Source: Escherichia coli
GTDB lineage: Bacteria > Pseudomonadota > Gammaproteobacteria > Enterobacterales > Enterobacteriaceae
Assembly: GCF_003334815.1 (NCBI RefSeq)
Contig: NZ_QOWO01000011.1
DNA length: 64,000 nucleotides
Direction: 5' to 3' (one strand)
Position 1 is the stretch's first letter. Every line of letters starts with the position of its first letter. The position numbers were made by a program. This document shows, in pieces, positions 21,024-24,000 of this stretch.

Positions 21024-24000
21024 TACAAGATCCAAAGAAATCAGTAAATTGCAACACACATTGTAGGCCTGATAAGCGTAGCGCATCAGGCAATATCACT
21101 TTTGAAATCAAACTTGACGATTAACACTTCTCCCAGCCGCCCTGTTGTGCCGTAAACCCCAGCGCCTGCATAAACGCCGTCATCACACCGCGATCTTCCA
21201 CGCCTGCATCCGCCATCCACCAGCATGAAACGCCAGGATTGTTACGCAAAACCTCTTCCAGCAGATATTGCCCCACACCGCGACGGCGGGTGACTTCCCG
21301 CACGCGCAGGGAATCCAGTGCTCCCTCGGTGCCGCTTAAGGTTACCCGCACGGCAGCGAGCAGGCGCTCGTTAAAACGCGCGGCGTAGATACGGTGGTTA
21401 TCGTCAACCTGTAACGAGGAAGGGGAATACTCCGGCCAGATCTTTTGCAGGTCAATCCGGTCTTGGTCGCTAAATTTTTCTAATCGAATGATGGTCAGCT
21501 TCATGGGTAACCCGTGTAAATCACAAAAGTGGAACCAGTGTAGCGAAATAATTTAATCGGAGGCTTTCTCTTTTTTATTTCTTTTGGCAGGTGATTAATT
21601 TTTTAACAGCAATAATTACAAAGTTAAAACATTAGAGAATGAAAAATGTCCAGCATAATCCCCTGAATGATAGTGAATTATTCCGCCCTTTGTGCCGTTA
21701 TTTTATGCTGACAAAGGCACTTTTTTCTGTTTATCTATCAATAAATTCAGAATATTATCTGTTCTTAATCGACTGAAAAATAGGGATTTTAATCGCTATT
21801 ATCACAAAATACTGCGCTAACCCCTTAATCAGACAGGCAAAAACAGTGCAGTATAAAAAAAGAACAGTCTGATTTGTTAACACATAAAAACAAAGCAACA
21901 CAACATCACGAATGGGGATTTTTGACTATGAAACGGAATGAGAAAACTATCATCGCAGGGATGATTGCACTGGCAATTTCACACACCGCTATGGCTGACG
22001 ATATTAAAGTCGCCGTTGTCGGCGCGATGTCCGGCCCGATTGCCCAGTGGGGCGATATGGAATTTAACGGCGCGCGTCAGGCAATTAAAGACATTAATGC
22101 CAAAGGGGGAATTAAGGGCGATAAACTGGTTGGCGTGGAATATGACGACGCATGCGACCCGAAACAAGCCGTTGCGGTCGCCAACAAAATCGTTAATGAC
22201 GGCATTAAATACGTTATTGGTCATCTGTGTTCTTCTTCTACCCAGCCTGCGTCAGATATCTATGAAGACGAAGGTATTCTGATGATCTCGCCGGGAGCGA
22301 CCAACCCGGAGCTGACCCAACGCGGTTATCAACACATTATGCGTACTGCCGGGCTGGACTCTTCCCAGGGGCCAACGGCGGCAAAATACATTCTTGAGAC
22401 GGTGAAGCCCCAGCGCATCGCCATCATTCACGACAAACAACAGTATGGCGAAGGGCTGGCGCGTTCGGTGCAGGACGGGCTGAAAGCGGCTAACGCCAAC
22501 GTCGTCTTCTTCGACGGTATTACCGCCGGGGAGAAAGATTTCTCCGCGCTGATCGCCCGCCTGAAAAAAGAAAACATCGACTTCGTTTACTACGGCGGTT
22601 ACTACCCGGAAATGGGGCAGATGCTGCGCCAGGCCCGTTCCGTTGGCCTGAAAACCCAGTTTATGGGGCCGGAAGGTGTGGGTAATGCGTCGTTGTCGAA
22701 CATTGCCGGTGATGCCGCCGAAGGCATGTTGGTCACTATGCCAAAACGCTATGACCAGGATCCGGCAAACCAGGGCATCGTTGATGCGCTGAAAGCAGAC
22801 AAGAAAGATCCGTCCGGGCCTTATGTCTGGATCACCTACGCGGCGGTGCAATCTCTGGCGACTGCCCTTGAGCGTACCGGCAGCGATGAGCCGCTGGCGC
22901 TGGTGAAAGATTTAAAAGCTAACGGTGCAAACACCGTGATTGGGCCGCTGAACTGGGATGAAAAAGGCGATCTTAAGGGATTTGATTTTGGTGTCTTCCA
23001 GTGGCACGCCGACGGTTCATCCACGGCAGCCAAGTGATCATCCCACCGCCCGTAAAATGCGGGCGGGTTTAGAAAGGTTACCTTATGTCTGAGCAGTTTT
23101 TGTATTTCTTGCAGCAGATGTTTAACGGCGTCACGCTGGGCAGTACCTACGCGCTGATAGCCATCGGCTACACCATGGTTTACGGCATTATCGGCATGAT
23201 CAACTTCGCCCACGGCGAGGTTTATATGATTGGCAGCTACGTCTCATTTATGATCATCGCCGCGCTGATGATGATGGGCATTGATACCGGCTGGCTGCTG
23301 GTAGCTGCGGGATTCGTCGGCGCAATCGTCATTGCCAGCGCCTACGGCTGGAGTATCGAACGGGTGGCTTACCGCCCGGTGCGTAACTCTAAGCGCCTGA
23401 TTGCACTCATCTCTGCAATCGGTATGTCCATCTTCCTGCAAAACTACGTCAGCCTGACCGAAGGTTCGCGCGACGTGGCGCTGCCGAGCCTGTTTAACGG
23501 TCAGTGGGTGGTGGGGCATAGCGAAAACTTCTCTGCCTCTATTACCACCATGCAGGCGGTGATCTGGATTGTTACCTTCCTCGCCATGCTGGCGCTGACG
23601 ATTTTCATTCGCTATTCCCGCATGGGTCGCGCGTGTCGTGCCTGCGCGGAAGATCTGAAAATGGCGAGTCTGCTTGGCATTAACACCGACCGGGTGATTG
23701 CGCTGACCTTTGTGATTGGCGCGGCGATGGCGGCGGTGGCGGGTGTGCTGCTCGGTCAGTTCTACGGCGTCATTAACCCCTACATCGGCTTTATGGCCGG
23801 GATGAAAGCCTTTACCGCGGCGGTGCTCGGTGGGATTGGCAGCATTCCGGGAGCGATGATTGGCGGCCTGATTCTGGGGATTGCGGAGGCGCTCTCTTCT
23901 GCCTATCTGAGTACGGAATATAAAGATGTGGTCTCATTCGCCCTGCTGATTCTGGTGCTGCTGGTGATGCCGACCGGTATTCTGGGTCGCCCGGAGGTAG

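What the first reader, a model, noticed from the sequence alone, without database searches (positions are those of the whole stretch)
21687..21726. Terminator-like hairpin plus T-run inside the long livK leader region
About 200 bp upstream of the livK start, the plus strand carries CCTTTGT-N17-ACAAAGG followed by cac and TTTTTT. The panM-livK intergenic region is unusually long (over 400 bp) and AT-rich. The structure could be an attenuator or leader terminator, or a binding platform; I cannot find a Leu-rich leader peptide by eye.
Basis: seen in the sequence. Interest (0 to 1): 0.2.

Follow-up and report, generated by a model that had tools for sequence, protein, structure and literature searches.

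The report
Chance hairpin around an Lrp box
The "terminator-like hairpin" upstream of the E. coli leucine-transport gene livK is really in the sequence, but it shows no sign of being an RNA terminator or attenuator: its loop is a deeply conserved match to the Lrp regulator's binding motif, its arms are not conserved, and the locus is already known to be Lrp-controlled, so the finding is ordinary.

Summary
It lies 202 bp upstream of the livK ATG (21928), in the 423-bp panM-livK spacer of E. coli.

The terminator/attenuator reading is not supported.
- The fold is weak (-8.6 kcal/mol, z -1.4, 17-nt loop). The real livK-livH terminator in the same window folds at -17.3 kcal/mol.
- Published Term-seq lists no 3' end anywhere in the spacer.
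- Across 42 Enterobacteriaceae the stem pairs in 49.5% of cells, no better than shuffles, and RNAalifold predicts no structure.
- About a third of complete E. coli genomes carry a haplotype that breaks the perfect stem.
- There is no leader peptide with tandem Leu codons and no Rfam match.

What is conserved is the loop. CGTTATTTTATGCTG (21696-21710) fits the Lrp consensus YAGHAWATTWTDCTR at 12 of 15 positions. That box stays within 3 mismatches in 41/42 Enterobacteriaceae and 32/35 more distant Enterobacterales. Lrp-like boxes are enriched in the spacer (7 against 1.8 expected).

Best reading: upstream regulatory DNA of the known Lrp-controlled livKHMGF promoter. The livK transcription start could not be retrieved, so "upstream of the promoter" remains inferred. 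Interest is low.

The parts
21687..21693 (+). 5' arm of the inverted repeat (CCTTTGT). It lies in the gap between two Lrp-like boxes.
   Evidence: Sequence. Identity to the window sequence across 42 Enterobacteriaceae is 0.3-0.9 per position. Changes are not compensated in the 3' arm.
21711..21717 (+). 3' arm of the inverted repeat (ACAAAGG). It is the least conserved stretch of the segment.
   Evidence: Per-position identity is 0.0-0.8. It reads ACAACTG in E. albertii, ACAACGA in E. whittamii, and ACAACGG in a haplotype matched in 1,716 of 5,426 complete E. coli genomes.
21721..21726 (+). T6 run. It is the start of a conserved T-rich DNA block, TTTTTTnTGTTTATCT (21721-21736).
   Evidence: Conserved across Enterobacteriaceae but replaced by non-T sequence in Pantoea and Erwinia. 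No RNA 3' end is reported here.
21696..21710 (+). Lrp-type box B (CGTTATTTTATGCTG). This is the 'loop' of the hairpin and the conserved core of the finding.
   Evidence: Matches YAGHAWATTWTDCTR at 12 of 15 positions. Positions 21699-21710 are about 100% conserved. The box keeps 3 mismatches or fewer in 41/42 Enterobacteriaceae and 32/35 distant Enterobacterales; 11 of those have 1 mismatch, e.g. CAGTGTATTATGCTG.
21671..21685 (+). Lrp-type box A2 (TAGTGAATTATTCCG), immediately 5' of the hairpin.
   Evidence: 2 mismatches to the consensus. 3 mismatches or fewer in 38/42 Enterobacteriaceae, but not kept in the distant set.
21651..21665 (-). Lrp-type box A (plus strand CAGCATAATCCCCTG).
   Evidence: 3 mismatches. 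The CAG...CTG frame is kept in Enterobacteriaceae (24/42 with 3 mismatches or fewer) and in distant genera (30/35; CCAGCATAACGCGCTGG in Pantoea).
21748..21762 (+). Lrp-like box C (CAGAATATTATCTGT). It overlaps a conserved -10-like TATTAT (21753-21758).
   Evidence: 4 mismatches in the window sequence, and 3 or fewer in 27/42 Enterobacteriaceae. 21748-21760 is essentially invariant.
21730..21758 (+). Candidate distal livK promoter, TTTATC-17-TATTAT (inferred only). The start would be near 21765.
   Evidence: Own PWM scan, score 5.2. Both hexamers lie in blocks about 100% conserved in Enterobacteriaceae. Not verified experimentally.
21830..21857 (+). Candidate proximal livK promoter, CAGACA-16-TATAAA (inferred only). 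The start would be near 21864.
   Evidence: Read by eye. The aligned hexamer is TATAAT in Kluyvera and TTTAAT in Klebsiella. The PWM scan does not rank it, because the last base is A. Not verified.
21880..21909 (+). C/A-rich stretch just upstream of the Shine-Dalgarno GGGG (21914-21917). It is the likely pairing site of the GcvB small RNA on livK mRNA.
   Evidence: Sequence. ACACnACATCACGAATGGGG is conserved across genera. livK is listed as a verified GcvB R1-seed target in PMC9299463. The position of the pairing site itself is inferred.
21928..23037 (+). livK coding sequence (leucine-specific periplasmic binding protein).
   Evidence: ORF list, RefSeq annotation of matching genomes.
21121..21504 (-). 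panM (panZ/yhhK) coding sequence, divergent from livK.

Best explanation
The 40-bp segment is double-stranded regulatory DNA upstream of the livKHMGF promoter, and possibly of the divergent panM promoter. It is not an RNA element.

Its functional core is the 'loop', CGTTATTTTATGCTG (21696-21710). This is one of several CAG...CTG boxes of the Lrp type in the spacer: 21651-65, 21671-85, 21696-710 and 21748-62. I propose that Lrp octamers or hexadecamers assemble on these boxes.

From that upstream array Lrp activates livK when leucine is absent and represses it when leucine is present. This regulation is published; the assignment of these particular boxes is inferred. The conserved T-rich block that follows (21721-21736) is most simply an A/T tract belonging to the same protein-DNA architecture (inferred).

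The two 7-nt arms sit in the less constrained DNA on either side of box B. They happen to be complementary in the K-12-type haplotype. They form no conserved or stable RNA hairpin and produce no detectable 3' end.
For: Against an RNA function:
- Weak fold, z -1.39. The terminator scan does not call it.
- Benchmarks with published Term-seq 3' ends fold far better: -17.3 kcal/mol (z -3.1) for the livK-livH terminator and -12.9 kcal/mol for the REP hairpin after livJ.
- Term-seq (PMC7815308, three conditions) has minus-strand 3' ends at MG1655 3596418, 3597520 and 3598392 and none in 3597561-3597983. Those three map to window 23070, 21968 and 21096.
- The stem pairs in 49.5% of cells across 42 Enterobacteriaceae. 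That equals the shuffles (306/500) and the slid controls. RNAalifold predicts zero pairs.
- Ortholog folds average -5.7 kcal/mol, close to their shuffles.
- Within E. coli, 1,716 of 5,426 genomes match the ACAACGG haplotype.
- No tandem-Leu ORF exists, and the start codons of the small ORFs are not conserved.
- No Rfam match.

For an Lrp box:
- 12/15 match to the consensus.
- 7 box positions in 423 bp against 1.81 +/- 1.30 in 2,000 dinucleotide shuffles; 4/2000 reach 7.
- Box B is kept in 41/42 and 32/35 genomes, and improves to 14/15 in Pantoea.
- The loop is the most conserved stretch of the segment.

Literature:
- High Lrp ChIP occupancy at livK-livJ in both minimal and LIV media (PMC10127797).
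- PlivK is activated by Lrp without leucine and repressed with it (PMC2374795).
Against: - No base-pair-resolution Lrp footprint or ChIP peak coordinate for this box could be retrieved, so the assignment rests on motif plus conservation.
- The Lrp consensus is degenerate and A/T-rich. Over the whole 64-kb window, matches are not enriched (80 against 67 +/- 9.5).
- Spacing between the conserved boxes is 45 and 52 bp centre to centre. That is not the roughly 30-bp spacing I recall for classical Lrp arrays (from memory).
- The livK transcription start was not retrieved, so 'not transcribed' is inference.
- The inverted-repeat-plus-T6 pattern is rare by chance (0.9% of shuffles).
- The alternative E. 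coli haplotype still folds to an interrupted hairpin of -7.4 kcal/mol.
- The Term-seq list contains only curated dominant 3' ends. A weak 3' end could have been missed.
Confidence: 0.7

Rival explanations
1. The hairpin plus T-run is a weak Rho-independent terminator or attenuator in a long livK leader. It would be transcribed from a promoter upstream of 21687 and modulated by leucine supply without a classical leader peptide.
For: The inverted repeat plus T6 is rare by chance. E. coli has -10-like hexamers upstream, for example CATAAT at 21654-21659. Some Enterobacter orthologs also fold to -10 to -11 kcal/mol. From memory only: older genetics implicated rho and leucyl-tRNA synthetase in liv regulation.
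Against: The fold is not distinguishable from shuffles. The loop is 17 nt and only 3 of 7 pairs are G-C. There is no Term-seq 3' end, even in the condition where livK 3' ends are detected. There is no covariation, and RNAalifold finds nothing. The stem is polymorphic in E. coli. The upstream -10-like hexamers are not conserved. No leader peptide. No Rfam hit.
Confidence: 0.05
2. The conserved core is not an Lrp site. It would be another DNA signal: a promoter element (TATGCT at 21704-21709 as a -10 with TTCCGC at 21681-21686 as a -35, or the T-tract as an UP element for a distal promoter), or the site of a different protein such as IHF, Fis, H-NS or an unknown regulator.
For: TTCCGC-17-TATGCT scores 5.4 in the own PWM scan. 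TAnnnT at 21704 is kept in 98% of Enterobacteriaceae. TTTATC-17-TATTAT just downstream is also fully conserved. The Lrp consensus is degenerate.
Against: In Pantoea and Erwinia the box is kept and fits the Lrp consensus better (14/15), while the putative -35 is not kept. Two further conserved CAG...CTG boxes flank it. Lrp is the published regulator and occupies the locus in vivo.
Confidence: 0.17
3. The hairpin terminates or insulates plus-strand read-through transcription, coming from livJ and running antisense to panM, before it enters the livK promoter.
For: livJ lies upstream on the same strand and panM is convergent with it. The T-run follows the hairpin only on the plus strand.
Against: livJ transcripts already end at the REP hairpin at window 21096, and no 3' end is listed between there and livK. 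The weak stem is not conserved.
Confidence: 0.03
4. The whole pattern, loop included, is a chance feature of A/T-rich spacer DNA and has no function.
For: Folding energy is within the shuffle range.
Against: The loop and the adjacent T-rich block are nearly invariant across genera, while the neighbouring positions vary.
Confidence: 0.03

Closest known systems
Multi-site Lrp arrays upstream of Lrp-regulated promoters (ilvIH, gltBDF, livJ, dadAX; architecture recalled from memory)
   Same: Several degenerate 15-bp CAG...CTG boxes matching YAGHAWATTWTDCTR, spread over more than 100 bp of A/T-rich DNA upstream of an amino-acid gene. Lrp- and leucine-dependent regulation is published for livK. The boxes are conserved across Enterobacterales.
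   Different: No footprint for these particular boxes was available here. Box spacing (45 and 52 bp) is not the roughly 30-bp periodicity I recall for ilvIH. Unusually, Lrp stays bound with leucine at this locus (PMC10127797).
Leader-peptide transcription attenuators of branched-chain amino-acid operons (leuL-leuABCD, ilvL-ilvGMEDA, ivbL-ilvBN)
   Same: Leucine-related gene, a hairpin followed by a T-run, upstream of the coding sequence.
   Different: No leader ORF with tandem Leu/Ile/Val codons or a Shine-Dalgarno sequence. No alternative antiterminator or significant leader structure. Weak, long-looped, non-conserved stem. No Rfam leader match. No 3' end.
Canonical intrinsic terminator, for example the livK-livH intercistronic terminator in this window (23046-23070)
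   Same: A 7-bp or longer stem followed by T residues on the coding strand.
   Different: The livK-livH element has a G+C-rich 9-bp stem, a 3-nt loop, -17.3 kcal/mol (z -3.1) and a mapped Term-seq 3' end. The finding has a 17-nt loop, 3 G-C pairs, -8.6 kcal/mol and no 3' end.

Membership tests
Rho-independent (intrinsic) terminator | G+C-rich stem with a short loop (about 3-8 nt) | tested here: not met
   7-bp stem with 3 G-C pairs and a 17-nt loop. Not called by the terminator scan.
Rho-independent (intrinsic) terminator | U-tract immediately after the stem | tested here: inconclusive
   T6 is present. It is separated from the 7-bp stem by 'cac', or by 2 nt in the extended register of the MFE fold.
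Rho-independent (intrinsic) terminator | Hairpin stability clearly above background | tested here: not met
   -8.6 kcal/mol, z -1.39, 21/200 shuffles as good. Mapped terminators in the window fold at -17.3 and -12.9 kcal/mol.
Rho-independent (intrinsic) terminator | RNA 3' end at the U-tract in vivo | tested here: not met
   PMC7815308 supplementary file 1 (LB OD 0.4, LB OD 2.0, M63 glucose) has no 3' end in MG1655 3597561-3597983, although the neighbouring livK and livJ 3' ends are listed. Caveat: the list holds only dominant curated ends.
Rho-independent (intrinsic) terminator | Stem kept in orthologs (conservation or compensatory change) | tested here: not met
   49.5% of cells paired, equal to shuffles and slid controls. 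RNAalifold predicts no pairs.
Leader-peptide attenuator (leu/ilv type) | Short translated leader ORF with tandem regulatory codons | tested here: not met
   No ORF of at least 8 aa has two or more consecutive Leu codons. A 14-aa ORF (21667-21711) has one V-I-L run, but it has no Shine-Dalgarno sequence and its frame is not kept in Enterobacter or Klebsiella. The aligned start codons of the 42- and 45-aa ORFs are not conserved.
Leader-peptide attenuator (leu/ilv type) | Mutually exclusive terminator and antiterminator structures | tested here: not met
   The whole-spacer fold is not better than shuffles (z -0.55). No alternative pairing partner for either arm is conserved.
Leader-peptide attenuator (leu/ilv type) | Element lies downstream of the transcription start | not testable with these tools
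   No livK start could be retrieved (searches found nothing). Promoter scans are ambiguous.
Leader-peptide attenuator (leu/ilv type) | Match to a curated leader RNA family | tested here: not met
   No Rfam hit in 21505-21927 above chance at an E-value limit of 10.
Lrp binding-site array | Match to the Lrp SELEX consensus YAGHAWATTWTDCTR, enriched locally | tested here: met
   21696-21710 matches 12/15. 7 positions in the spacer against 1.81 +/- 1.30 in shuffles, 4/2000.
Lrp binding-site array | Box conserved in species that share Lrp and the target gene | tested here: met
   3 mismatches or fewer in 41/42 Enterobacteriaceae and 32/35 distant Enterobacterales.
Lrp binding-site array | Lrp-dependent, leucine-responsive expression of the adjacent gene | tested here: met
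   From the literature, not from sequence: PMC2374795 and PMC10127797.
Lrp binding-site array | Physical Lrp binding to this box at base-pair resolution | not testable with these tools
   Only locus-level ChIP occupancy is stated in the text. No peak coordinates are in the held supplements.

The most novel reading that the evidence does not exclude
In K-12-type E. coli only, a recently derived perfect stem around Lrp box B acts as a weak, condition-specific intrinsic terminator of a short upstream transcript. It might start near the E. coli-specific CATAAT at 21654-21659. That would add an RNA-level or transcription-interference layer to leucine control of livK, and might help explain why livK expression changes with leucine while Lrp occupancy does not (PMC10127797).
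Probability: 0.04. Interest if true: 0.35.

Novelty: already known. Interest (0 to 1): 0.07.

Why it matters
It matters little. livKHMGF is a textbook Lrp- and leucine-regulated operon, and the segment fits that picture as upstream operator DNA.

There are two modest gains:
- A tempting terminator-like pattern in a 'leader' can be set aside, with explicit tests.
- Three CAG...CTG boxes (21651-65, 21696-710, 21748-62) are conserved from Escherichia to Pantoea, Erwinia and Providencia. They are concrete targets for anyone dissecting how Lrp both activates and represses livK while staying bound in the presence of leucine.

Tried and rejected
Literature
- Retrieval of a livK transcription start failed. 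Supplements of PMC4782308, PMC3415461, PMC7132871 and PMC4681348 held no livK or coordinate entry. PMC11092163 and PMC4161252 had no held supplements. The Haney 1992, Sharma 2007, Thomason 2015, Calvo & Matthews 1994 and Kroner 2019 PMC records are not held. The Kroner preprint does not mention livK.
- Lrp peak coordinates are not in the held supplements of PMC10127797.
- No held paper links livK with Term-seq, yhhK, or the Williamson/Oxender premature-termination work.

Ideas considered and rejected
- Rfam families, including the leader families: nothing.
- Leader peptides. The 45-aa (21639-21776) and 42-aa (21692-21820) ORFs have no tandem Leu and no conserved start. The 14-aa ORF MIVNYSALCAVILC (21667-21711) is rich in branched-chain residues, but it has no Shine-Dalgarno sequence and its frame is lost in Enterobacter and Klebsiella.
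- CRP-like or IHF-like readings of the arms and flank, checked by eye, do not fit and are not conserved.
- A minus-strand terminator for panM-side transcription: on that strand the hairpin is preceded by A6, not followed by T.

Promoter prediction
- A simple sigma-70 PWM gave no decisive livK promoter. Phylogenetic footprinting of TAnnnT gave candidates but no proof.
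Full report
**Locus and observation.** The window is E. coli chromosome. The stretch around the finding reads rpoH, livJ, REP elements, panM (minus strand, 21121-21504), livK (21928-23037), livH, livM. The panM-livK spacer is 423 bp (21505-21927). It differs from MG1655 by one SNP, at 21623, outside the hairpin, with no indels, so MG1655 coordinate = 3619488 minus window coordinate. The T-run ends 202 bp before the livK ATG.

**Is it more than chance?** As a pattern, yes. A perfect 7-bp inverted repeat with a loop of 20 nt or less and a T6 within 4 nt appears in 0.9% of dinucleotide-preserving shuffles of the spacer. In the whole window it appears 5 times against 0.47 expected. 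As a structure, no. The fold is -8.6 kcal/mol with z = -1.39, and 21 of 200 shuffles fold as well. For 21685-21726 the values are -8.8 kcal/mol and z -1.89. The loop is 17 nt and only 3 of 7 pairs are G-C, so the terminator scan does not report it. The whole spacer folds no better than shuffles (z -0.55). Rfam gives nothing in the spacer, even at an E-value limit of 10.

**Comparison with real 3' ends in the same window.** Adams et al. 2021 (PMC7815308) curated dominant Term-seq 3' ends for MG1655 in LB at OD 0.4, LB at OD 2.0, and M63 glucose.
- On the livK strand they list 3596418 (window 23070), which is the livK-livH terminator. It folds at -17.3 kcal/mol, z -3.1.
- They list 3597520 (window 21968), 40 nt into livK.
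- They list 3598392 (window 21096), which is the REP hairpin after livJ. It folds at -12.9 kcal/mol.
- They list nothing between 3597561 and 3597983.

A terminator at the finding would give an end near 3597761-3597764. livK-associated ends were detected, so the operon was expressed in at least one condition. From its position in the file this was probably M63, but I did not verify that. The caveat is that only dominant ends are listed. No Rho-termination region is assigned to livK or panZ either, though that experiment was done in LB, where I expect liv expression to be low.

**Comparative test.** A PanM-anchored scan of one genome per species returned 80 loci. In 73 of them a livK-type gene lies divergently upstream, with a spacer of 388-471 bp.
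- Across 42 Enterobacteriaceae sequences (the window plus 41 orthologs), the 3' arm is the least conserved part of the segment and the loop is the most conserved.
- The named stem forms standard pairs in 49.5% of cells. That matches the shuffles (306 of 500 reach it) and partners slid by 1-3 columns.
- RNAalifold predicts no pair at all.
- Folding each ortholog on its own gives a mean of -5.7 kcal/mol, close to its shuffles. A few Enterobacter sequences reach -10 to -11, while Klebsiella, Phytobacter, Leclercia and E. albertii are near -1 to -2.
- Even within the genus the arm reads ACAACTG (E. albertii) or ACAACGA (E. whittamii), with no compensation.
- Within E. coli there are two haplotype families. 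3,731 genomes match the window type (2,836 exactly). 1,716 match a type with ACAACGG and a neighbouring A-to-G change (891 exactly). That second haplotype folds to an interrupted hairpin of -7.4 kcal/mol, z -1.2.

So there is no selection for a perfect stem, and the weak pairing that remains is no better than shuffles.

**No leader peptide.** No plus-strand ORF in the spacer has tandem Leu codons. The 45-aa and 42-aa ORFs lack conserved start codons. A 14-aa ORF rich in branched-chain residues (21667-21711) has no Shine-Dalgarno sequence, and its frame is lost in Enterobacter and Klebsiella.

**What is conserved.** The loop, CGTTATTTTATGCTG (21696-21710), matches the Lrp SELEX consensus YAGHAWATTWTDCTR at 12 of 15 positions (the consensus is cited from memory, Cui et al. 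1995).
- The spacer holds 7 positions with 3 mismatches or fewer. 2,000 dinucleotide shuffles give 1.81 +/- 1.30, and 4 of 2,000 reach 7.
- Over the whole window there is no enrichment (80 against 67).
- The loop box keeps 3 mismatches or fewer in 41/42 Enterobacteriaceae. It does so in 32/35 sequences of the distant alignment (the window, three Enterobacteriaceae, and Pantoea, Erwinia, Mixta, Ewingella, Brenneria and Providencia). In many of those it fits better, for example CAGTGTATTATGCTG at 14/15.
- Box A (21651-65) is conserved across the same range. Box C (21748-62) is well kept in Enterobacteriaceae but more weakly in the distant set (12/35 with 3 mismatches or fewer).
- Box A2 (21671-85) is conserved only within Enterobacteriaceae.
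- The T-run belongs to a block, TTTTTTnTGTTTATCT, that is conserved in Enterobacteriaceae but not in Pantoea.

**Published context.** Lrp activates PlivK without leucine and represses it with leucine (PMC2374795). Lrp ChIP occupancy at livK-livJ is high in both minimal and LIV media, the one exception among 142 Lrp-regulated units (PMC10127797). livK mRNA is a verified GcvB target (PMC9299463). The C/A-rich stretch at 21880-21909 next to the Shine-Dalgarno sequence is conserved.

From memory only, and not retrievable here: Haney et al. 1992 established Lrp control of livJ and livK. Oxender's group reported rho and leuS effects, and premature termination early in livJ (Williamson & Oxender 1992).

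**Mechanism.**
- Shown: the hairpin is weak, not conserved, and without a mapped 3' end. The loop is a deeply conserved DNA block that fits the Lrp motif. Lrp-like boxes are locally enriched.
- From the literature: Lrp occupies the locus and controls it.
- Inferred: Lrp multimers bind boxes A, A2, B and C. The T-tract assists DNA wrapping, or serves an adjacent promoter. The segment lies upstream of the livK start.

Promoter prediction is not decisive. The candidates are TTTATC-17-TATTAT (start near 21765; both hexamers invariant in Enterobacteriaceae) and CAGACA-16-TATAAA (start near 21864; the aligned hexamer is TATAAT in Kluyvera). Both lie downstream of the T-run.

**Verdict.** The terminator and attenuator readings are not supported. 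The 'binding platform' alternative is supported, in the sense that the loop is an Lrp-type box. This is an ordinary part of a known Lrp-regulated control region, and interest is low.

Noticed in passing
window 21949-21968 (MG1655 3597520): Published Term-seq lists a dominant 3' end 40 nt inside the livK ORF. It lies 3 nt after a small hairpin (AUCAUC-GCAGG-GAUGAU) with no U-tract. It could be a processed or protected 5' fragment, or early termination. From memory, this recalls the old report of premature termination in livJ.
   Followed up: partly
window 23046-23070: A strong intercistronic terminator lies between livK and livH (CCGCCCGUAAAAUGCGGGCGG + UUU, -17.3 kcal/mol). Term-seq lists a 'primary' 3' end at 23070. 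It presumably sets the ratio of binding protein to membrane components.
   Followed up: partly
window 20950-21113: REP-type palindromes lie between livJ and panM. They give sub-threshold Rfam naRNA4 hits (best 40.4 bits against a gathering score of 59.5). The livJ Term-seq 3' end maps here, at 21096.
   Followed up: partly
window 21535-21545 (minus strand): The block CCAGTGTAGCG is invariant from Escherichia to Pantoea and Erwinia. Its reverse complement contains TACACT (21542-21537), a likely -10 hexamer for panM about 30 nt before the panM ATG.
   Followed up: partly
window 21773-21782 and 21814-21821: Two further blocks, CTGAAAAATA and GCGCTAAC, are conserved across nearly all Enterobacterales examined, and the spacer length is held at about 390-470 bp. 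Their function (promoter, Lrp, or another factor) is unknown.
   Followed up: no
window 21940-21942: livK codon 5 is GAG (Glu) in this strain and GCG (Ala) in MG1655. The change is in the signal peptide n-region.
   Followed up: no
L038, L039, L041, L042, L044, L045, L075, L077 (Kluyvera) and L032, livK 5' region aligned between window 21898 and 21899: Kluyvera species carry a roughly 20-nt insertion that forms a palindrome (ACACG-CCACGA-CGTGT) between the A-rich and C/A-rich parts of the livK upstream region. Enterobacter sp. BIGb0383 (L032) has a roughly 50-nt G+C-rich insertion at the same spot.
   Followed up: no
window 19722-19736: An Lrp-like box, TAGCAGAGTATGCTG (2 mismatches on either strand), lies about 100 bp upstream of the livJ ATG (19830). 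It shares the TATGCTG end with the livK box B.
   Followed up: no
locus list: The PanM-anchored genome scan returned no Salmonella, Citrobacter or Klebsiella pneumoniae locus. This is probably a limit of the peptide patterns used. The comparative set therefore lacks those genera.
   Followed up: no
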